Of a stretch of DNA of 10,575 nt, positions 990-10,575 are shown piece after piece. The stretch's first letter is position 1, and each line of letters opens with the position of its first letter. The notes beneath the pieces are model-generated. The model did not search any database and had not been told where the DNA came from. It saw only the letters and a program-made list of their open reading frames with translations. Origin of the DNA: a virus (taxonomy: Duplodnaviria > Heunggongvirae > Uroviricota > Caudoviricetes); IMG/VR virus record IMGVR_UViG_2690315994_000024; one strand, given 5' to 3'. A program made the translations under genes and the position numbers.

Positions 990-1337
990 ATGAAACGATG
1001 GATATTTTCATTGCTGGCGTTAGTGTCTGTTGGTGTAAGTGCAAACACCATAACGATGCAATGCGGCAACTTTCGTATGGATGCGATCCCTGACTCATTA
1101 TTTAAAATCAATGGCGAAACAGTAACATCCCAAAAAGTAAAAATGTTGGGTAAAGACGGTACAGGCATGCAGATCAAAATGGAGCTGATGCCTGCCAAAG
1201 ATGGCAACAATTATGGGTTCGAGTATATCCATCGACCGGGCACTAAAACGCGTTTCCTGAACGTCCAGTTGTTGCAGAACAGCATGGATGCTCCGAAAAT
1301 TATTGGCTCTTTCCCGTGTAAGAAAGTTGTTGGTTGA
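990..1337 (+). CDS. Small secreted protein of unknown function (predicted Sec signal peptide; two Cys in mature part)
   Basis: ATG 990 lies 9 nt after GAGAGG (974-980) and 2 nt after the upstream stop. N-terminus MKRWIFSLLALVSVGVSA has a basic n-region, hydrophobic core and VSA cleavage motif. The track's longer ORF from 909 overlaps the upstream gene and is unlikely to be the real start. Confidence 0.6.
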   Translation: MKRWIFSLLALVSVGVSANTITMQCGNFRMDAIPDSLFKINGETVTSQKVKMLGKDGTGMQIKMELMPAKDGNNYGFEYIHRPGTKTRFLNVQLLQNSMDAPKIIGSFPCKKVVG

Positions 1338-1344
1338 TTAAGAA

Positions 1345-1899
1345 ATGAGCAAGCGTTCGCCAATAGATACAACAGAAGAACAAAAGGCAATTGAGACTAT
1401 AGGCGCTGATTTTATTTCGTCATATTATAAAGATAGATATGAGGAAGCAAAATCAACATATCGTCGTCTTGAGGACAAAGTTAACTACCTTCTTGCTATT
1501 TTAGCTGTAGAAACCTCTGCTCTACTGGCTGTATTTGGGACTGTTGATTTCAAAAGTGGGCTAAAGAGTAATTGGTTTTTAACATTATCTATACTTTGTG
1601 CATATCTGTGCTTTGTTTGTATTGTTATGTGCTTTTTTTTCCTATGGCGTACTTGGGGACTGAAAGATATACCAAAAATGCCTATTCATAAGCGAAAAGA
1701 AGAGCATGATTTTTTACTTTACGGTGATAAAATTAAAACGCTTAGATACCATATGTTTCAGTATGGTAAAGCTGTTGAATTGATCGAAAGTCTTCATAAA
1801 GAAAAGGCAGTTTATGCTCGTTATCTTTTTGAAGGAATTGCGTTATCTTTCGGTTTTTTCATATTATCGGTTACTTTTCTTTTGATAAATAAGGCATAG
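1345..1899 (+). CDS. Predicted integral membrane protein (about 3 hydrophobic helices), unknown function; AT-rich cargo gene
   Basis: ATG 1345 follows the stop of the previous gene (TGA 1335-1337). Hydrophobic stretches LLAILAVETSALLAVFG, WFLTLSILCAYLCFVCIVMCFFFLW and IALSFGFFILSVTFLLI. Composition is visibly more AT-rich than the flanking tail genes. Confidence 0.6.
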   Translation: MSKRSPIDTTEEQKAIETIGADFISSYYKDRYEEAKSTYRRLEDKVNYLLAILAVETSALLAVFGTVDFKSGLKSNWFLTLSILCAYLCFVCIVMCFFFLWRTWGLKDIPKMPIHKRKEEHDFLLYGDKIKTLRYHMFQYGKAVELIESLHKEKAVYARYLFEGIALSFGFFILSVTFLLINKA

Positions 1900-1902
1900 T
1901 TG

Positions 1903-2073
1903 ATGACAACATCAAATAATGACAACTCACAGCAAAGTAAGCCAACGCAAGCAGAGCAATCCATGGCTGATTATGAAAGCAGTATAATGCTTGAAGTACC
2001 TTTTGATGGATTGGATTACATGACAGAAAGCGTTAAAGAACCTGAGTTGGACAATTTTAAACAGAAAAAATAA
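1903..2073 (+). CDS. Hypothetical small acidic protein (56 aa)
   Basis: ATG 1903 sits 4 nt after the stop of the membrane-protein gene and runs to TAA 2071-2073 (MTTSNNDNSQQSKPTQAEQSMADYESSIMLEVPFDGLDYMTESVKEPELDNFKQKK). It is followed directly by a terminator. Short ORF absent from the track, so low confidence. Confidence 0.3.
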   Translation: MTTSNNDNSQQSKPTQAEQSMADYESSIMLEVPFDGLDYMTESVKEPELDNFKQKK

Positions 2074-5117: not shown

Positions 5118-5962
5118 TGGCGAAAAATGACTTTAAAGCGTTTGCAACTGATCGAAATGCCAATGTTATGTCGCAGGAGGAATGGGAAGCGTTGCCTGCG
5201 CTTATATCCGGATTTACAGCAGGGAAAGCATCCAGTGCGCAAGTCAATAAGGTTATTCGGCAGGCCAGCTTTATTGCTGCAGCTCTGGCCCAGTTTGTAA
5301 GTGATAAAACGCAACGGGATGTGCTTGATAATGGTGATCTGCCCGGTTTTGTTGAATTGCTGGGATCGGGGTTTGCTGTTGAATACCTGAGCCGCAAGAA
5401 TCCGTTTGGTGATATCAAATCGGATGGCACGGTGAAAACGGCTCTCGAAAACCTTGGTTTGGGAGAAGGTTCGGCATTACCCGTTGGGGTGCCTGTTCCG
5501 TGGCCTTCAGCCACTCCGCCAACAGGCTGGCTGAAATGCAATGGTGCGGCTTTTTCTGCTGAAGAATACCCGGAACTGGCAAAGGCTTACCCGACTAATA
5601 AATTGCCTGATTTACGCGGTGAATTTATTCGTGGCTGGGATGACGGTCGCGGGATTGATTCTGGTCGTACTTTGCTTAATTGGCAGCCACACACAATTTT
5701 GGACCATGCACACTATATGGAATTATGGACAGGGGACGGACTCGCCGCAGGAAGTGCACGGGAAGGAGTAAATCCAGGAATACTGGCTACATACGGTGAC
5801 GGGGGAATAGTTAAAACAGACGAACCCGGTCTTAGGGTGCCTTCCTCACTACGAGCTATTAGCTCCCGTAGTGTAAAACGTTTTGGTGAAATTAGTGGAA
5901 AGGTAGGTACAGAAACTCGTCCTCGTAACATCGCTTTTAATTATATTGTGAGGGCCGCATGA
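5117..5962 (+). CDS. Tail fibre protein: constant N-terminal part (Sc) fused at crossover site A to variable C-terminal domain Sv1
   Basis: ATG 5117 overlaps the upstream stop (TGATG) with GGGGAG 10 nt upstream, and is preferred over the track's ATG 5099. C-terminal part has a tail-collar-like motif ([21 protein letters not shown]...[17 protein letters not shown]). Crossover site lies in-frame at codons LGLGE. Confidence 0.85.
5442..5467 (+). other. Invertase crossover site A (hix/gix-like, 12-2-12): CTCTCGAAAACC TT GGTTTGGGAGAA
   Basis: Two imperfectly inverted 12-bp half-sites flank a 2-bp TT core. It resembles hixL (TTCTTGAAAACC AA GGTTTTTGATAA) as I recall it. It sits exactly at the Sc/Sv boundary of the tail-fibre gene, where sequence identity with the inverted Sv1 copy begins. 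Confidence 0.75.
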
Positions 5963-6052
5963 TGAATAAAGTTATCTTAAATAACGAACTCATTGCCATA
6001 AAAGCGGGAGACATTATCATTTATAATTATGATGGTGAAACGCGGGAATATA
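5454..6052 (+). repeat. Inverted repeat P, left copy (Sv1 variable domain plus first 31 codons of tfa1); reverse complement of 8303-8901
   Basis: Translations are identical in several frames on both strands (e.g. track ORFs 5541-5771 and 8584-8814; 5713-5931 and 8424-8642). Nucleotides were spot-checked at 5941-5970 against 8381-8410. Coordinates sum to 14355. Confidence 0.85.
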
Positions 6053-6066
6053 GACTCAATAATTAA
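5959..6066 (+). pseudogene. Truncated tail fibre assembly gene tfa1' (first 31 codons intact, then 4 foreign codons and stop)
   Basis: ATGA overlap with the tail-fibre stop at 5959-5962. [31 protein letters not shown] is identical to the N-terminus of the full-length 201-aa tfa1 on the minus strand (7791-8396), then diverges at 6052/6053 into RLNN-stop. Confidence 0.7.
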
Positions 6067-6343
6067 CATATACACATATTCACGCTCATTAATACAATCA
6101 TTTAAAGGAAACAACAAACTCATTGAGGATTATGAAAAAATCCTTATTGGCATGGCAGACAATAACAAAGATAAAACCATGTATAAGAGATTACATGATG
6201 CAAAAATAAATGTAATGGTAGATTATGCTCAAGGGATAAAAAATATTGATGCAGAGCTAAGAGATGCAGTCAATAAGGGATTCGACATTATCGACCAAGA
6301 AGTAAAGTCACTACAAATGAAATTAAACAAATTAGCTTCATAG
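6053..6343 (+). pseudogene. C-terminal fragment (about 97 codons) of the downstream cargo gene X, lacking its N-terminal half
   Basis: From DSIINIYTYSRSL... to the stop it is identical to the C-terminal part of the 215-aa ORF at 9603-10250 (-). The first 8 codons of the track ORF 6029-6343 are junction read-through. Confidence 0.7.
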
Positions 6344-6390
6344 AATGCTCCACTCCCTGTTCAATATTTTTACAAGCTTATCAGCCAACC

Positions 6391-6419
6391 GCAGCACGTT
6401 CTTGCATACGACGTGCTAC
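6391..6419. terminator. Hairpin between convergent X' and invertase copy 1 (possible bidirectional terminator)
   Basis: Stem AGCACGT (6393-6399) pairs with ACGTGCT (6411-6417) around an 11-nt loop. There is no clean T-run, so function is uncertain. Confidence 0.25.
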
Positions 6420-6423
6420 GGTT

Positions 6424-6978
6424 TCATTTATCTCCGACCGGAAACTTCTTATACAGTGTCGATATACCAACATCATAGATGATCGCCACCTTCTGGCGAG
6501 GAACGCCTGATGCAATTAATCGTCCGGCCTGCTCCCATTGTTCTGGTGTAAGTTTGGGGCGACGTCCACCAATTCGTCCCTGTGCGCGAGCTGCTTCCAG
6601 TCCAGCTTTTGTTCGTTCAACAATCAGTTCACGCTCCATTTCAGCCAGGGCACCCATCACATGAAAGAAAAAGCGCCCCATTGGGGTACTGGTATCAATT
6701 GAATCCGTCAGACTACGAAAGTTGATGCCTCGTTCGCGCAACTCCTCCACCAGCACGACAAGATGCCGCATACTGCGCCCCAGTCGGTCCAGTTTCCAGA
6801 CCACCAGCGTGTCACCTGCCGATAATGTCCTGAGCAGCTTTTTCAGTCCTGGTCTGTCGGACTTTGTACCGCTTATCTTGTCTTCAAAAATCAGCTCACA
6901 TCCTGCACAGTTCAGCGCATTACGTTGTAGATCGGTATTCTGGTCATTTGTTGATACACGTACATAGCCAATAAGCAT
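6424..6978 (-). CDS. pin: Site-specific DNA invertase, serine recombinase of the Hin/Gin/Pin/Cin family (copy 1)
   Basis: N-terminus MLIGYVRVSTNDQNTDLQRNAL contains the catalytic Ser in the YVRVSTNDQ motif; core VVWKLDRLGRS and SLTDSIDTSTPMGRFFFHVMGALAEMERELIVERT; C-terminal HTH (IYDVGISTLYKK). 184 aa from the conserved MLIGY start; the track's upstream ATG 7014 adds 12 non-conserved codons. Closest recalled relative is e14 Pin. Confidence 0.9.
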   Translation of the reverse strand: MLIGYVRVSTNDQNTDLQRNALNCAGCELIFEDKISGTKSDRPGLKKLLRTLSAGDTLVVWKLDRLGRSMRHLVVLVEELRERGINFRSLTDSIDTSTPMGRFFFHVMGALAEMERELIVERTKAGLEAARAQGRIGGRRPKLTPEQWEQAGRLIASGVPRQKVAIIYDVGISTLYKKFPVGDK

Positions 6979-7032
6979 GTTAAATTCCCCTGGTAAAAGC
7001 AGGAATGATGCCATTTGCTTGTTATTTCTTCA

Positions 7033-7058
7033 TTTTCATAAACGTTGGTTTGGGAGAA
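7033..7058 (+). other. Invertase crossover site B: TTTTCATAAACG TT GGTTTGGGAGAA
   Basis: Shares core and right half-site with site A and is the exact reverse complement of site C. It lies 20 bp upstream of the invertase copy 1 start, at the in-frame start of the Sv2 cassette. Confidence 0.75.
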
Positions 7059-7379
7059 GCGGCAAAACGGAATGTGGGAACTGGGGAAAATCAGATACCT
7101 GATATGTCATCATATGCATCAGGTTCAGGCTGGCGAAAAATGCCAGATGGTTCAATTGAACAGTGGGGACGAATTAGTTTTCCTAGTGAACACGGGCCTG
7201 TATCCGCCAATGTTTCATTCCCGATTCCATTTACACAGACACCGGGCATTGTAATTGTGTGCGATGGTGGTTTCGGGGGGGGGAATATGTGGGGGGCGAC
7301 CAACTGGAGCACTACCGGCTTCATAGCTCACTGCAATTATGGTCTTGAAGGTGGTGCGTTTTTCGCTAAGGGCTGGTAA
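7059..7379 (+). CDS. Silent tail-fibre variable cassette Sv2 (alternative C-terminal domain, about 107 codons), not fused to Sc in this isomer
   Basis: Reading frame continues in-frame from the GLGE codons of site B to TAA 7377-7379. Upstream codons [14 protein letters not shown] are antisense read-through of the invertase 5' region, not a real start. Contains a G9 tract at 7275-7283. Confidence 0.65.
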
Positions 7380-7819: not shown

Positions 7820-8396
7820 CATCCGGCGCTGTGCTGGTATCTGTTGCCGTCACCGCGTCAATGTAATCCAGCACAGCGTTAAGGCGGGTTGTTTCTGCCT
7901 GCGTCAGCTTCCGTCCGGCCTGTAATTTCAGTTGAATCAGACTGATGGAGGCCATTGCAGTATCAATCAGCGACTGGCGCTGTGCTTCTGCTGCATCTAC
8001 TGCTGCGCCGTGCTGTGCCTCGGTATCTGTCACCCATTTCTCACCATCCCATTTATCATATGGCGTTAATGGGGCGATAGTGGTTGTATTTTCAGGGTAA
8101 TCACCCGGAACTGTGATTTCTTTGGTATCTCCCGTTTCGGTACTATAGACAACTTCACCGCGATGGTCTGGCACATATTCCCATGAATTTAAATCTACAG
8201 AGCGACAGATTGCATAACCAGCTTTATGTGTACCTGGTGCATCCAAACAGGAACATGCCGGTATACCGACGCCGACAGCGAGATATTCAGTTGATGTAGA
8301 AATATATTCCCGCGTTTCACCATCATAATTATAAATGATAATGTCTCCCGCTTTTATGGCAATGAGTTCGTTATTTAAGATAACTTTATTCATCAT
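7791..8396 (-). CDS. Tail fibre assembly protein Tfa1, full length (201 aa), partner of Sv1
   Basis: Start overlaps the Sv1 stop on the minus strand. Its first 31 codons are duplicated in tfa1' at 5959-6051. Confidence 0.8.
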   Translation of the reverse strand: MMNKVILNNELIAIKAGDIIIYNYDGETREYISTSTEYLAVGVGIPACSCLDAPGTHKAGYAICRSVDLNSWEYVPDHRGEVVYSTETGDTKEITVPGDYPENTTTIAPLTPYDKWDGEKWVTDTEAQHGAAVDAAEAQRQSLIDTAMASISLIQLKLQAGRKLTQAETTRLNAVLDYIDAVTATDTSTAPDVIWPELPEA

Positions 8397-8901
8397 GCGG
8401 CCCTCACAATATAATTAAAAGCGATGTTACGAGGACGAGTTTCTGTACCTACCTTTCCACTAATTTCACCAAAACGTTTTACACTACGGGAGCTAATAGC
8501 TCGTAGTGAGGAAGGCACCCTAAGACCGGGTTCGTCTGTTTTAACTATTCCCCCGTCACCGTATGTAGCCAGTATTCCTGGATTTACTCCTTCCCGTGCA
8601 CTTCCTGCGGCGAGTCCGTCCCCTGTCCATAATTCCATATAGTGTGCATGGTCCAAAATTGTGTGTGGCTGCCAATTAAGCAAAGTACGACCAGAATCAA
8701 TCCCGCGACCGTCATCCCAGCCACGAATAAATTCACCGCGTAAATCAGGCAATTTATTAGTCGGGTAAGCCTTTGCCAGTTCCGGGTATTCTTCAGCAGA
8801 AAAAGCCGCACCATTGCATTTCAGCCAGCCTGTTGGCGGAGTGGCTGAAGGCCACGGAACAGGCACCCCAACGGGTAATGCCGAACCTTCTCCCAAACCA
8901 A
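8303..8901 (-). repeat. Inverted repeat P, right copy
   Basis: Reverse complement of 5454-6052; see left copy. Confidence 0.85.
8393..8887 (-). CDS. Silent tail-fibre variable cassette Sv1 (second, inverted copy of the domain currently fused to Sc)
   Basis: From [25 protein letters not shown]... to the stop it is identical to the C-terminal part of the expressed tail fibre. The track's N-terminal [14 protein letters not shown] is read-through into the invertase-proximal repeat. Confidence 0.75.
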   Translation of the reverse strand, partial: GSALPVGVPVPWPSATPPTGWLKCNGAAFSAEEYPELAKAYPTNKLPDLRGEFIRGWDDGRGIDSGRTLLNWQPHTILDHAHYMELWTGDGLAAGSAREGVNPGILATYGDGGIVKTDEPGLRVPSSLRAISSRSVKRFGEISGKVGTETRPRNIAFNYIVRAA

Positions 8902-8913
8902 CGTTTATGAAAA
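8888..8913 (-). other. Invertase crossover site C (reverse complement of site B): + strand TTCTCCCAAACC AA CGTTTATGAAAA
   Basis: Lies between the Sv1 cassette and invertase copy 2. Both repeat families (P and Q) meet and overlap precisely at this site. Confidence 0.75.
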
Positions 8914-8967
8914 TGAAGAAATAACAAGCAAATGGCATCATTCCTGCTTTTACCAGGGGAATTTAAC

Positions 8968-9522
8968 ATGCTTATTGGCTATGTACGTGTATCAACAAAT
9001 GACCAGAATACCGATCTACAACGTAATGCGCTGAACTGTGCAGGATGTGAGCTGATTTTTGAAGACAAGATAAGCGGTACAAAGTCCGACAGACCAGGAC
9101 TGAAAAAGCTGCTCAGGACATTATCGGCAGGTGACACGCTGGTGGTCTGGAAACTGGACCGACTGGGGCGCAGTATGCGGCATCTTGTCGTGCTGGTGGA
9201 GGAGTTGCGCGAACGAGGCATCAACTTTCGTAGTCTGACGGATTCAATTGATACCAGTACCCCAATGGGGCGCTTTTTCTTTCATGTGATGGGTGCCCTG
9301 GCTGAAATGGAGCGTGAACTGATTGTTGAACGAACAAAAGCTGGACTGGAAGCAGCTCGCGCACAGGGACGAATTGGTGGACGTCGCCCCAAACTTACAC
9401 CAGAACAATGGGAGCAGGCCGGACGATTAATTGCATCAGGCGTTCCTCGCCAGAAGGTGGCGATCATCTATGATGTTGGTATATCGACACTGTATAAGAA
9501 GTTTCCGGTCGGAGATAAATGA
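8968..9522 (+). CDS. pin: Site-specific DNA invertase, Hin/Gin/Pin/Cin family (copy 2, identical to copy 1)
   Basis: Same protein as 6424-6978. ATG 8968 is preceded by AGGGGA. This copy is in the canonical position, immediately outside the right crossover site. Confidence 0.9.
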   Translation: MLIGYVRVSTNDQNTDLQRNALNCAGCELIFEDKISGTKSDRPGLKKLLRTLSAGDTLVVWKLDRLGRSMRHLVVLVEELRERGINFRSLTDSIDTSTPMGRFFFHVMGALAEMERELIVERTKAGLEAARAQGRIGGRRPKLTPEQWEQAGRLIASGVPRQKVAIIYDVGISTLYKKFPVGDK

Positions 9523-9526
9523 AACC

Positions 9527-9555
9527 GTAGCACGTCGTATGCAAGAACGTGCTGC
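9527..9555. terminator. Hairpin between convergent invertase copy 2 and X (mirror of 6391-6419)
   Basis: Stem AGCACGT (9529-9535) pairs with ACGTGCT (9547-9553) around an 11-nt loop, starting 5 nt after the invertase stop. No clean T-run. Confidence 0.25.
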
Positions 9556-9602
9556 GGTTGGCTGATAAGCTTGTAAAAATATTGAACAGGGAGTGGAGCA
9601 TT

Positions 9603-10250
9603 CTATGAAGCTAATTTGTTTAATTTCATTTGTAGTGACTTTACTTCTTGGTCGATAATGTCGAATCCCTTATTGACTGCATCTCTTAGCTCTGCATCAA
9701 TATTTTTTATCCCTTGAGCATAATCTACCATTACATTTATTTTTGCATCATGTAATCTCTTATACATGGTTTTATCTTTGTTATTGTCTGCCATGCCAAT
9801 AAGGATTTTTTCATAATCCTCAATGAGTTTGTTGTTTCCTTTAAATGATTGTATTAATGAGCGTGAATATGTGTATATGTTAATTATTGAGTCTCTAGCA
9901 GAATCATTTAGTTTTGCAATGACATTCGCATTTTGCTCATAGAATGTGAAATTATCATCCCCTACAGGGAATGTGAGAATCAACATTTGTCCCGGTTTTA
10001 TATTATCAATGTGTGTTTTCATCCTTTTATTATATAAATTGATTAGGGTGAAAACTTCTCCCTTAACTCCTTTTAATACTGAAAGTTGTAATTCAAGGGA
10101 TTCTCTTTCTGTCTCTACTTTAGACAGCTTAGCTTGTTGGGTCACTCCTTTTAGGGTAAACCATCCGCCAATAAGAGTACCAACTAGAGCTGTGAGGGAG
10201 GAGGATAACCATCCAGGTATGCTATTTAAAAGATTACTAAATTCACTCAT
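9603..10250 (-). CDS. Cargo protein X: N-terminal transmembrane helix followed by a charged, probably coiled-coil region; unknown function
   Basis: 215-aa ORF in AT-rich DNA. N-terminus IPGWLSSSLTALVGTLIGGWFTL is hydrophobic; the rest is K/E/D/L-rich. Convergent with the invertase. Confidence 0.6.
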   Translation of the reverse strand: MSEFSNLLNSIPGWLSSSLTALVGTLIGGWFTLKGVTQQAKLSKVETERESLELQLSVLKGVKGEVFTLINLYNKRMKTHIDNIKPGQMLILTFPVGDDNFTFYEQNANVIAKLNDSARDSIINIYTYSRSLIQSFKGNNKLIEDYEKILIGMADNNKDKTMYKRLHDAKINVMVDYAQGIKNIDAELRDAVNKGFDIIDQEVKSLQMKLNKLAS

Positions 10251-10308
10251 TATAAGTACTCGCTAATATTGAACGATATATATATCAAATTATTATAAAA
10301 CTCGTCAG

Positions 10309-10575
10309 CTACTGGAGAAGGCTACCTGAACTTCGATCTATTCCTGCATCCATATAGTTGATGGTCTTCTGGAGCTCTTCGATTAGGGCAACAGCTTTTG
10401 CTCGAGAAATGCATATTAGTTGATCCGGAAATTCTTGTAAGGGCCAGTTTGGTATACAGGCCATGTTATCAGTGAAGGATGCAGACAAGTAAACTTCATT
10501 GGTAACCAGAGAATAGCTTACCTCAAAATTGGTGAGTTCCAGCAAACTGCTAACGTTTGACTCTTTTCTGCGCAT
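10309..10575 (-). CDS. Hypothetical protein upstream of X in the same orientation, possibly 5'-truncated by the window edge
   Basis: The ORF reaches the last base of the window (ATG is the final codon on the minus strand), so the true start may lie outside. AT-rich; no recognisable motif. Confidence 0.4.
   Translation of the reverse strand: MRRKESNVSSLLELTNFEVSYSLVTNEVYLSASFTDNMACIPNWPLQEFPDQLICISRAKAVALIEELQKTINYMDAGIDRSSGSLLQ

What the first reader, a model, noticed from the sequence alone, without database searches (positions are those of the whole stretch)
9603..10575. Two-gene AT-rich cargo module at the accessory hotspot downstream of the invertase
Related elements carry accessory or defence genes immediately beyond the invertase (as I recall, mcrA next to pin in e14 and mom next to gin in Mu). 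Here that position holds a different module: a membrane-anchored coiled-coil protein X and an upstream small ORF on the same strand, both AT-rich and without recognisable motifs. A 3' fragment of X has also been copied into the inverted repeat. This is a candidate novel exclusion or defence locus, though the function is pure inference.
Basis: inference. Interest (0 to 1): 0.6.

Follow-up and report, generated by a model that had tools for sequence, protein, structure and literature searches.

The report
Orphan membrane-protein cargo gene at prophage end
The last variable slot of an E. coli prophage, just past its tail-fibre invertase, holds a single imported gene for a membrane-anchored helical protein of an uncharacterised family that rides on many mobile elements; it is a reasonable but untested candidate for protecting the host from other phages.

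Summary
The two ORFs are real, but they are not one module. X (9603-10250, minus strand, 215 aa, GC 33%) is a 729-bp single-gene cassette. It sits in a true cargo slot between the tail-fibre invertase and the last backbone gene of a SEN34-like prophage integrated in yfhL. In relatives that slot is empty, or holds a 281-aa protein or an O-acetyltransferase.

X has one N-terminal membrane helix and a confidently modelled four-helix bundle, predicted to face the cytoplasm. It evolves under purifying selection (dN/dS about 0.1). Its family has 659 clusters at 50% identity and matches nothing in Pfam, PADLOC, PHROGs or NCBIfam.

X travels alone. It is found after cI, after gpJ, at prophage ends, beside integrases of satellite-like elements, in an ICE and on plasmids that carry phage genes.

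The 88-aa upstream ORF (10309-10575) is complete. It is a conserved backbone gene (phrog_17793) with a conserved LexA box just beyond the window.

A defence or exclusion role is the best inference but is untested. The X 3' fragment copy is real. It belongs to a 1.59-kb duplication seen in no other assembly.

The parts
9603..10250 (-). X: CDS for a 215-aa bitopic membrane protein; the cargo gene
   Evidence: ORF. 216 homologous clusters of the same length. dN/dS about 0.1. Structure model pLDDT 84.
9566..10293 (.). Bounds of the X cassette (729 bp): similarity to relatives that lack X stops at 9566 on the pin side and resumes at 10294 on the small-ORF side
   Evidence: blastn against L004 ends at 9566; against L003 it resumes at 10294. 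45 genomes match only from query position 44, which is window 10294. GC of X is 0.333.
10152..10208 (-). Codons 15-33 of X: the single transmembrane helix (LSSSLTALVGTLIGGWFTL)
   Evidence: Best 19-residue hydrophobic window. K+R count is 0.03 before and 4.0 after the helix across 32 homologues, which predicts N-terminus out and C-terminus in.
9927..9971 (-). Codons 94-108 of X: the invariant loop motif FPVGDDNFTFYEQNA between helices of the bundle
   Evidence: Invariant columns F94, G97, D98, D99, N100, F101, F103, Y104, E105, N107, A108. F101 is invariant across the distant family too. The stretch is non-helical in the model.
10309..10575 (-). Small ORF (88 aa, complete): a conserved backbone gene of the prophage end (phrog_17793), not part of the cargo
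   Evidence: Annotated as 88 aa in RefSeq and SEN34. Present without X in 45 genomes and in Citrobacter, Salmonella, Yersinia and Stenotrophomonas phages.
10292..10297 (-). Perfect TATAAT hexamer straddling the cassette boundary, 41 nt upstream of the X start codon, with a poor -35
   Evidence: Read directly from the sequence. The promoter scan found no site meeting its criteria on the minus strand between the small ORF and X.
9523..9559 (-). Hairpin followed by UUUCAUUU between the convergent X and pin genes; a likely shared terminator
   Evidence: RNA fold -18.1 kcal/mol, z -2.24. The 42-nt segment is conserved in HK97 and Stx2a phages.
8932..9522 (+). Pin/Gin-type DNA invertase, the conserved left flank of the slot
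   Evidence: Resolvase plus HTH_7 domains, E 1.6e-51.
8887..8906 (.). Crossover (cix/hix-like) site next to the invertase; further copies at 5449-5468 and 7040-7059
   Evidence: AAAC(C/G)TTGGTTTGGGAGAAG.
6029..6343 (+). Chimeric ORF: 8 codons from tfa-derived sequence fused to X codons 120-215 (the copied 3' fragment, 6053-6343). It lacks the membrane helix.
   Evidence: This exact protein is absent from the 15-billion-protein collection.
6424..7014 (-). Second, identical copy of the invertase inside the 1591-bp duplicated block (5449-7039)

Best explanation
**Shown**
- The window is the tail end of a SEN34-like (Brunovirus-like) myovirus prophage of about 42.7 kb, integrated in the 5' end of yfhL.
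- Between the tail-fibre invertase and the last backbone gene there is a cargo slot. In this lineage a minimal 729-bp AT-rich cassette fills it, carrying one gene, X.
- X is a real protein under purifying selection.
- X belongs to a large uncharacterised family. Its members sit alone in accessory positions of many kinds of mobile element.
- The upstream 88-aa ORF is not part of a module with X. It is a conserved backbone gene preceded by a TTGACT -35 box and a LexA box.

**Predicted**
- X has one N-terminal transmembrane helix, N-terminus outside. This helix continues into a four-helix bundle on the cytoplasmic face of the inner membrane.
- X has no enzymatic motif. The conserved surface loop is FPxGDDNFxFYEQNA.

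**Inferred**
- Expression: X brought only 43 nt of its own upstream sequence. No terminator separates it from the small ORF. So here X is probably transcribed as the second gene of the small ORF's LexA-controlled transcript. Read-through from the captured host yfhL promoter may add to this. Transcription probably ends at the hairpin shared with the convergent pin gene.
- Function: X is a lysogen-benefit (moron) protein. Most likely it protects the cell against other phages at the inner face of the membrane. It could block genome entry (superinfection exclusion). Or it could sense infection through the bundle and damage the membrane through oligomerised anchors (abortive infection).

**Confidence by step**
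- Solitary cargo gene in a hotspot: about 0.9.
- Bitopic protein with a cytoplasmic bundle: about 0.75.
- Anti-phage function of any kind: about 0.45.
- Exclusion at entry versus abortive infection: undecided.
For: **Hotspot and cassette**
- The slot content differs among collinear relatives.
- The cassette bounds are 9566 and 10294, and X has GC 0.333.

**Prophage layout**
- The integrase lies next to yfhL. X and the small ORF are at the opposite end.
- The att core is an 18-bp repeat inside yfhL. The host yfhL promoter points into the prophage.

**X is a real, constrained protein**
- 216 clusters at 62-75% identity across Enterobacterales.
- 659 representatives at E <= 1e-3 in the deep search.
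- dN/dS 0.08-0.14.

**Architecture**
- Model pLDDT 84, pTM 0.71.
- Positive-inside counts favour N-out, C-in in 32 of 32 close and 44 of 53 distant members.

**X travels alone, in cargo positions**
- On the same strand after cI and an HSDR_N gene in Providencia lambdoid prophages.
- Directly after gpJ in Morganella.
- The last gene before icd' in a Citrobacter prophage.
- Next to integrases of Klebsiella elements that carry capsid genes.
- In a Dickeya ICE beside CcdAB.
- In an Enterobacter islet beside HigBA.
- A 28%-identical relative lies on the opposite strand between the lysis and replication genes of a phage-like contig.
- 31%-identical relatives lie on about 110-kb non-mobilizable plasmids that carry phage genes.
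- On IMG/VR contigs it often lies within 0.3-2.7 kb of a contig end.

**Neighbourhood**
- 114 neighbouring proteins from 16 loci were scanned.
- PADLOC hits include PD-T7-4 (3e-96), PDC-S18 (2e-140), PD-Lambda-2 A and B, AbiTii and DRT UG29.
- Six are integrases.

**Transcription**
- A LexA box lies 13-14 nt before the small ORF's ATG in E. coli, Salmonella and Citrobacter. Similar boxes lie close upstream in SEN34, Fostie and YeP1.
- No terminator was found between the small ORF and X.
- A hairpin follows X.
Against: - No sequence or fold link ties X to any characterised defence or exclusion protein. PADLOC gave no hit for X and only single-member hits to unrelated models among 53 family members. 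Pfam and PHROGs and the BFVD viral structures also gave nothing significant.
- The fold hits are generic helical bundles.
- X is absent from all 50,697 deposited phage genomes by tblastn. It is so far known only from prophages and other integrated or plasmid elements.
- Strong purifying selection and 62-75% identity across genera are not what is typical of proteins in an arms race with phage partners.
- In two contexts its neighbours are SOS and damage-tolerance cargo (umuDC, dinI, SRAP). Here it sits behind a LexA box. That would equally fit a stress-related role.
- LexA repression would keep expression low in an unstressed lysogen. That fits poorly with constitutive exclusion.
- The topology rests only on the positive-inside rule. 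The promoter and terminator assignments are sequence patterns only.
- The neighbourhood sample is small, and I could not assign each PADLOC hit to its locus.
Confidence: 0.5

Rival explanations
1. X is an accessory membrane protein with a benefit unrelated to defence. It might modulate envelope or division physiology, or damage tolerance, during the SOS response or lysogeny. A lysogenic-conversion or fitness factor, not an anti-phage protein.
For: - Here X lies downstream of a LexA-box promoter.
- In Citrobacter and Morganella prophages it sits among dinI, umuDC and SRAP cargo.
- In other phages the gene after the small ORF is dinI.
- Purifying selection is strong and there is no sign of diversification.
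- No defence-family match exists.
Against: - Upstream regions of X in five other contexts contain no CTG-N10-CAG box. So LexA control belongs to the slot, not to X.
- In Providencia X follows the cI repressor on the same strand. That is the classical place for exclusion and abortive-infection genes such as rexAB.
- Its neighbours include several recognised defence genes.
Confidence: 0.25
2. One reading: the small ORF and X form one two-gene functional system (for example regulator plus effector, or antitoxin plus toxin) imported together as cargo.
For: - The two genes are on the same strand, 58 nt apart, with no predicted terminator between them.
- Both have below-backbone GC.
Against: - The small ORF occurs without X in about 45 complete E. 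coli genomes. It also occurs without X in Citrobacter, Salmonella, SEN34, Fostie and YeP1.
- X occurs without it in every other context examined.
- The similarity break at 10294 puts the small ORF outside the cassette.
Confidence: 0.07
3. X is a selfish or toxic element: a membrane-active toxin or addiction factor that stabilises the mobile element and gives the host no benefit.
For: - X is a solitary small membrane protein, often next to toxin-antitoxin pairs (HigBA, CcdAB).
- It is always on mobile DNA.
Against: - No cognate antitoxin or partner gene is conserved next to it.
- It is stably present as an intact 215-aa gene on at least 1000 contigs.
- In Enterobacter the same protein was seen on about 700 contigs and at one chromosomal site in the genomes read. 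An unneutralised toxin is unlikely to persist like that.
Confidence: 0.1
4. X serves the phage's own lytic cycle. It could be an i-spanin-like or holin-associated lysis factor, or a membrane factor for DNA ejection or assembly.
For: - An N-terminal membrane helix followed by long helices resembles i-spanins such as Rz.
- A 28%-identical relative lies beside a lysis cassette.
Against: - The prophage has its own lysis cassette about 23 kb away: holin, GH24 lysozyme and a following gene.
- No o-spanin partner is present.
- The predicted topology places the helical domain in the cytoplasm.
- The relative is on the opposite strand from the lysis genes.
- X homologues occur in an ICE and in chromosomal islets that have no phage genes.
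- Relatives of the same prophage lack X.
Confidence: 0.05

Closest known systems
e14 pinE-mcrA-icd' and Mu gin-com/mom right end: accessory genes just beyond the tail-fibre invertase
   Same: Same position. The gene sits between a Pin/Gin-type invertase with its invertible tail-fibre segment and the end of the prophage or phage genome. The content differs from one element to another.
   Different: The cargo is unrelated. McrA is an HNH type IV restriction enzyme and Mom is a DNA-modification enzyme. X is a small membrane-anchored helical protein with no enzymatic motif. X is convergent with pin, whereas mcrA and mom are co-directional with their invertases. Here a conserved LexA-controlled backbone gene closes the slot on the far side.
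Phage diversity hotspots that carry defence genes (P2 Z/fun and old/tin loci; Rousset et al. 2022 as cited in bioRxiv 10.1101/2024.10.15.618418)
   Same: A slot flanked by conserved genes, next to tail-fibre genes and often a DNA invertase, with swapped cargo. AT-rich single-gene cassettes fill it.
   Different: The phage lineage is different: SEN34/Brunovirus-like, not P2-like. None of the cargo alleles seen in this slot (X, the 281-aa protein) matches a PADLOC model. The only recognisable allele is an O-antigen acyltransferase.
Prophage superinfection-exclusion and abortive-infection membrane proteins (lambda RexB, P22 SieA/SieB, T4 Imm, HK97 gp15; my own knowledge of these systems plus PMC10883804 for SieA)
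   Same: Small inner-membrane proteins encoded as morons and expressed from the prophage. One X context, directly after cI on the same strand, copies the placement of rexAB.
   Different: There is no sequence similarity. Pfam and PHROG scans of X and 53 relatives gave nothing. X has one helix and a large cytoplasmic four-helix bundle, rather than several membrane helices or a periplasmic domain. No phenotype is known.
Four-helix-bundle sensor domains (Tsr/Tar ligand-binding domain, DUF3829)
   Different: Identity is 7-12% and no TarH or 4HB_MCP Pfam match exists. There is no second membrane helix and no signalling domain. The bundle is predicted to be cytoplasmic, not periplasmic. The fold class is very common, so this is a resemblance and not membership.

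Membership tests
Phage accessory (moron) hotspot next to the tail-fibre invertase (e14 pin-mcrA, Mu gin-mom type) | Located between the invertase or tail-fibre module and the end of the prophage | tested here: met
   X lies between pin and the small ORF. The att core in yfhL is about 200 nt beyond the small ORF, and the integrase is at the other end. The e14 and Mu layouts were verified.
Phage accessory (moron) hotspot next to the tail-fibre invertase (e14 pin-mcrA, Mu gin-mom type) | Gene content of the slot varies among otherwise collinear relatives while the flanks are conserved | tested here: met
   The slot is empty, or holds a 281-aa gene, an acyltransferase plus small genes, or X. Breakpoints are 9566 and 10294.
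Phage accessory (moron) hotspot next to the tail-fibre invertase (e14 pin-mcrA, Mu gin-mom type) | Composition differs from the backbone | tested here: met
   GC is 0.333 for X against 0.49-0.51 for pin and the tail genes. The small ORF, at 0.427, is intermediate.
Phage accessory (moron) hotspot next to the tail-fibre invertase (e14 pin-mcrA, Mu gin-mom type) | Autonomous transcription unit with its own promoter and terminator (the classical moron definition) | tested here: inconclusive
   A hairpin follows X. No promoter met the scan criteria between the small ORF and X. Only a TATAAT with a poor -35 lies at 10292-10297. X may depend on the small ORF's promoter.
Known anti-phage defence systems (PADLOC-DB v2.0.0) | Significant match of the protein to a model of a known or candidate defence protein | tested here: not met
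   X gave no family at E <= 1. Among 53 family members only single-member hits to unrelated models appeared. Newer catalogues could not be searched.
Known anti-phage defence systems (functional definition) | Reduces phage plating or protects cultures when expressed | not testable with these tools
   This needs cloning or deletion and a phage panel.
Superinfection-exclusion protein families (SieB, Imm, Cor and PHROG families annotated as exclusion) | Sequence match to the family profile | tested here: not met
   Pfam and PHROGs scans of X and of 53 relatives gave no such family.
i-spanin (Rz-like) lysis proteins | N-terminal anchor with a periplasmic coiled coil, encoded in the lysis cassette with an o-spanin partner | tested here: not met
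   The lysis cassette is elsewhere. No partner gene is present. The helical domain is predicted to be cytoplasmic. Homologues occur in non-phage elements.
4HB_MCP / TarH chemoreceptor sensor domains | Profile match, periplasmic location between two membrane helices, and a downstream signalling module | tested here: not met
Two-gene system (small ORF plus X) | The two genes co-occur across genomes and contexts | tested here: not met
   125 against 80 genomes. Each gene is found without the other.
LexA (SOS) regulon, for the small ORF | A LexA box (CTGT-N8-ACAG type) at the promoter, conserved among orthologues | tested here: met
   CTGTACATAATTACAG lies 14 nt before the ATG in E. coli. Boxes matching 15-16 of 20 consensus positions lie 13-14 nt before the ATG in Salmonella and Citrobacter. 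CTGT-N8-CCAG boxes lie close upstream in SEN34, Fostie and YeP1. The background rate of CTG-N10-CAG is 0.37 per kb. The box lies just outside the window.
LexA (SOS) regulon, for the small ORF | LexA binding and induction by DNA damage | not testable with these tools
   This needs a gel-shift assay and transcript measurements with and without mitomycin C.

The most novel reading that the evidence does not exclude
X founds a widespread family of single-gene anti-phage proteins not listed in the catalogues searched here. The family has 659 clusters at 50% identity and is absent from Pfam and PADLOC. In this reading, a membrane-tethered cytoplasmic four-helix bundle senses or blocks incoming phage at the inner face of the membrane. 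Prophages, satellite-like elements, ICEs and phage-like plasmids exchange it as a minimal cassette. In this prophage it is wired behind an SOS-controlled promoter.
Probability: 0.35. Interest if true: 0.6.

Novelty: new member of a known kind. Interest (0 to 1): 0.4.

Why it matters
Prophage hotspots are a productive place to find new immune genes. This work turns a vague 'AT-rich module' into one sharply bounded, cheap-to-test candidate.

- The candidate is a 648-bp gene with natural carriers among standard strains: IAI1, ETEC H10407, O55:H7 CB9615 and O103:H2 12009.
- Natural slot-empty and slot-swapped relatives are available as controls.
- If X is protective, it adds a large unannotated family with a simple architecture to the defence catalogue.
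- It would also mark the slot between pin and phrog_17793 in SEN34-like prophages as a place to mine. The 281-aa alternative allele is equally unknown.
- If X is not protective, its recurrent placement after cI and at prophage ends still needs a different explanation.

Separately, the conserved LexA-box gene at the prophage end shows that cargo placed in this slot can come under SOS control.

Tried and rejected
- **Antirepressor idea for the small ORF.** I considered a LexA-controlled antirepressor of the kind I recall from Gifsy prophages. I dropped it as unnecessary because the prophage repressor carries a Peptidase_S24 self-cleavage domain.
- **Spanin or lysis role for X.** Rejected on location, topology and occurrence outside phages.
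- **Family and structure searches that gave nothing.**
  - Pfam, PADLOC, PHROGs and NCBIfam on X, on 53 distant relatives and on the alternative 281-aa cargo.
  - The PDB sequence profile search (best E about 1).
  - BFVD.
  - The afdb50 fold library was unavailable.
- **Phage genomes.** tblastn of X against 50,697 phage genomes found no hit.
- **Literature.** A search by RefSeq accession found nothing. Keyword searches found no matching described system.
- **Distant-relative locus search.** The search for related loci with the distant alignment failed for lack of conserved stretches. The close alignment gave only 7 species-representative genomes.
- **A 4-bp microhomology at the duplication junction.** This was suggested by the repeat finder's overlapping arms. 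Base-by-base comparison corrected it to 1 nt.
- **The novel junction.** It is not in IMG/VR or JGI metagenomes. The chimeric ORF is not in the protein collection. So I could not decide between a real rearrangement and an assembly artefact.
Full report
**What is in the sequence**

The window carries tail and baseplate genes on the plus strand. These are followed by an invertible tail-fibre segment and a Pin/Gin-type invertase (8932-9522, Resolvase plus HTH_7). Two minus-strand ORFs then complete the window. X is at 9603-10250 (215 aa). A small ORF is at 10309-10575 (88 aa).

X has GC 0.333 against 0.49-0.51 for the tail genes and pin. The small ORF is intermediate at 0.427.

The small ORF is complete. 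It matches phrog_17793 over positions 1-88 of 91 (E 2e-43). RefSeq and phage SEN34 annotate the same 88 residues. Its ATG is simply the last codon of the window.

**Where the window comes from**

Near-identical DNA occurs in complete E. coli genomes. In O103:H2 strain 12009 the region is the end of a prophage of about 42.7 kb lying between yfhH and yfhL. The tyrosine integrase sits next to yfhL. X and the small ORF are the last two genes at the opposite end.

The attachment core is an 18-bp repeat, AATTGTGATATGTGTGAA, inside codons 11-16 of yfhL.
- At the X end, the host yfhL promoter and its first 16 codons remain and point into the prophage, about 200 nt upstream of the small ORF.
- At the integrase end, the phage supplies a new 5' end for yfhL.

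The closest sequenced phage is Salmonella phage SEN34 (Brunovirus). There the small-ORF homologue, SEN34_31, is the gene next to attP and int.

**The slot is a real hotspot, but the cargo is X alone**

X is present in 80 of 5,426 complete E. coli genomes, always as a single copy. The small ORF is present in 125. In the other 45 or so, similarity to the window resumes at 10294, 15 nt after the small ORF's stop codon.

Relatives fill the slot differently:
- In the record vB_EcoM-606R2 a 281-aa protein of unknown function occupies the slot and has also replaced the 3' half of pin.
- In Citrobacter prophages the slot is empty. The small ORF and the invertase converge and overlap by 4 nt.
- In Salmonella and SEN34 the slot carries an O-antigen-type acyltransferase and small genes.
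- A prophage with the same tail genes at the pphA site ends with pin and has neither X nor the small ORF. Similarity stops at window 9566.

So X is a 729-bp cassette (9566-10293) with 43 nt of upstream and 37 nt of downstream sequence. The small ORF is conserved backbone.

e14 has pinE-mcrA-icd' and Mu has gin-com/mom at the right end. A preprint on phage hotspots also notes invertases and mixed cargo next to tail-fibre genes in P2-like phages.

**What X is**

X is a genuine, constrained gene.
- 216 clusters of 215-223 aa share 62-75% identity across Escherichia, Salmonella, Enterobacter, Citrobacter, Klebsiella, Serratia, Dickeya, Pectobacterium, Yersinia, Providencia, Morganella and Proteus.
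- Long invariant motifs include FPVGDDNFTFYEQNA and RDSIINIYTY.RSLIQSFKGNN.
- dN/dS is 0.08-0.14 against five homologues.
- A profile search of 1.84 billion representatives found 659 clusters at E <= 1e-3 and 251 at E <= 1e-10. Most of those listed are 190-220 aa and match across most of their length.

Neither X nor 53 diverse members match any Pfam, PADLOC, PHROG or NCBIfam family consistently. No solved structure is related by sequence.

AlphaFold2 gives a good model (pLDDT 84, pTM 0.71).
- A helix spanning residues 13-82 contains the only hydrophobic segment (15-33).
- A conserved non-helical stretch (83-101) follows.
- Two long helices (116-154 and 160-214) pack into a bundle.

Positively charged residues average 0.03 before and 4.0 after the membrane helix in 32 close homologues. 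The figures are 0.62 and 2.9 in the distant set, with 44 of 53 sequences agreeing. This predicts the N-terminus outside and the bundle in the cytoplasm. There are no cysteines, only two histidines, and no catalytic-looking motif.

**How X travels**

Every context examined shows X alone, in an accessory position of a mobile element:
- On the same strand after the cI repressor and an HSDR_N gene in Providencia lambdoid prophages.
- Directly after the tail-tip gene gpJ and before umuDC in Morganella.
- The last gene before the icd' duplication in a Citrobacter prophage, after dinI, umuDC and SRAP.
- Next to the integrase of Klebsiella elements that carry capsid genes.
- Among the cargo of a Dickeya ICE beside ccdAB.
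- In an Enterobacter chromosomal islet beside higBA.
- A 28%-identical relative lies on the opposite strand between the lysis and replication genes of a phage-like contig.
- 31%-identical relatives sit on about 110-kb non-mobilizable IncFIB plasmids that carry phage genes.
- In IMG/VR, 21 viral contigs carry X, often within 0.3-2.7 kb of a contig end.
- No deposited phage genome carries X.

I scanned 114 proteins encoded near X homologues at 16 loci. Strong PADLOC hits included PD-T7-4, PDC-S18, PD-Lambda-2 A and B, AbiTii and a DRT UG29 reverse transcriptase. Six of the 114 were integrases. The sample is small, and I could not map each hit to its locus.

**The small ORF and expression**

Upstream of the small ORF, and therefore just outside the window, E. 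coli relatives have a TTGACT -35 box. They also have a perfect LexA box, CTGTACATAATTACAG, ending 14 nt before the ATG.
- Salmonella and Citrobacter homologues have boxes matching 15-16 of 20 consensus positions at the same distance.
- SEN34, Fostie and YeP1 have CTGT-N8-CCAG boxes close upstream.
- The background rate of CTG-N10-CAG is 0.37 per kb.

In Fostie and YeP1 the next gene is dinI. The small ORF is therefore very probably an SOS-regulated backbone gene.

No terminator is predicted between the small ORF and X. No promoter there meets the scan's criteria. A perfect TATAAT with a poor -35 straddles the cassette boundary at 10292-10297. A hairpin followed by a U-rich run lies after X. 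It falls in a 42-nt segment that is conserved in HK97 and Stx2a phages.

From this I infer that X here is the second gene of the LexA-controlled transcript, possibly helped by read-through from the captured yfhL promoter.

X homologues elsewhere have no LexA-like box upstream. Several share a GTTAAC-containing element instead. So SOS control is a property of this slot and not of X.

**Most likely function**

I commit to a lysogen-benefit protein acting at the cytoplasmic face of the inner membrane, most probably against other phages. My estimate for any anti-phage role is about 0.45.

Points in favour:
- X is solitary cargo in classic moron positions.
- It sits after cI, where rexAB sits in lambda.
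- It has defence-gene neighbours.
- Its architecture is that of a small membrane protein.

Points against:
- There is no homology to anything characterised.
- The fold is generic.
- Purifying rather than diversifying selection acts on it.
- It is repeatedly associated with SOS and damage-tolerance cargo.
- LexA repression here would limit expression in an unstressed lysogen.

I cannot separate exclusion at DNA entry from abortive infection by computation. The main rival is a stress- or envelope-related accessory role (0.25). Lesser rivals are a selfish toxin (0.1), a true two-gene system (0.07) and a lytic-cycle function (0.05).

**The copied 3' fragment**

Window 5449-7039 is an extra 1591-bp block that no other assembly contains.
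- It reads: crossover site, tail-fibre C-terminal exon, the first 94 nt of a tfa gene, then X codons 120-215 and a second identical invertase in reverse.
- It is a circular permutation of the reverse complement of 8303-9897.
- It differs at only two positions. One is the half-site base next to the crossover core (5453). The other (6051) lies at the novel junction, in the few bases where the repeat finder's two arms overlap.
- The novel junction (6052/6053) has 1 nt of microhomology.

A tandem duplication of 8303 to about 9895, followed by two ordinary Pin inversions between the three crossover sites, reproduces the arrangement exactly. This is my reconstruction from the coordinates.

The best-matching complete E. 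coli genomes span about 8,990 nt, which equals the window minus this block. The junction is absent from IMG/VR and JGI metagenomes. The chimeric 104-aa ORF (6029-6343) is absent from 15 billion proteins. It is either a one-off rearrangement or an assembly artefact. The truncated X copy lacks the membrane helix and is probably inert.

**Verdict**

- The hotspot idea is supported.
- The two-gene module is not supported.
- Defence remains a good but untested inference.
- This is a new member of a known kind: uncharacterised cargo in a phage hotspot. Interest is moderate.

Noticed in passing
window 5449-7059 and 8303-9897 (junction 6052/6053; crossover sites 5449-5468, 7040-7059, 8887-8906): A 1591-bp extra block duplicates the tail-fibre exon, the invertase and the 3' part of X in inverted, circularly permuted order. 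A tandem duplication followed by two Pin inversions reproduces it. It is found in no other assembly searched, so it is a one-off rearrangement or an assembly artefact.
   Followed up: partly
just beyond the window end (10576 to about 10640); seen in L001/L002 13054-13120, L003, L025, L035-L037, L040: A conserved TTGACT -35 box and a LexA box (CTGTACATAATTACAG in E. coli) lie 13-14 nt upstream of the small ORF's ATG in E. coli, Salmonella and Citrobacter. Similar boxes lie close upstream in SEN34, Fostie and YeP1. In Fostie and YeP1 the next gene is dinI.
   Followed up: yes
L006 1203-1250 and 43913-43960 (about 200 nt beyond the window end): The prophage integrates inside yfhL (18-bp core AATTGTGATATGTGTGAA, codons 11-16). 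The host yfhL promoter and 16 codons are left pointing into the prophage towards the small ORF and X. The phage supplies a replacement yfhL 5' end at the integrase side.
   Followed up: partly
window 1345-2073: A second AT-rich insert (GC 0.34) lies inside the baseplate gene block. It encodes a 184-aa membrane protein (phrog_18554; weak PADLOC PycTM hit, E 9e-4) and a 57-aa protein (phrog_18231). A related O111 prophage has a DUF4282 gene at this position, so this looks like another cargo slot.
   Followed up: partly
window 990-1337: A small protein (phrog_3443, unknown function) has a signal-peptide-like N-terminus (MKRWIFSLLALVSVGVSANT). It lies between baseplate genes, in a stretch of somewhat lower GC (about 0.43-0.46).
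   Followed up: no
window 9523-9564: The 42 nt after the pin stop codon are 93-97% identical to segments in HK97, phage 2H10, Ayreon and many Stx2a phages. They fold into the hairpin that probably terminates both pin and X transcripts.
   Followed up: partly
L003 4869-5714 (phage record ON470579.1): The alternative allele of the same slot is a 281-aa protein with no Pfam, PADLOC or NCBIfam match. Its insertion removed the 3' half of pin. This 'phage' record also includes the host genes yfhH, pgpC and tadA, so it is a prophage region with flanks.
   Followed up: partly
L002 9815-12000 (E. coli B-JRPT-4119): The same X and small-ORF end is joined to a different, Mu-like tail module. That module has a truncated stfP, a GH55 protein and only a remnant of the invertase. 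So this prophage end recombines between unrelated prophages at the yfhL site.
   Followed up: no
L026-L030 7702-8130: In Klebsiella elements that carry capsid genes, the 56%-identical X relative is followed 35 nt later by a 140-142-aa gene with no Pfam hit on record. This may be a lineage-specific partner that E. coli lacks.
   Followed up: no
L001 11447-12000 (O103:H2 12009): pinE is annotated as frameshifted in that reference strain, whereas the window has two intact copies.
   Followed up: no
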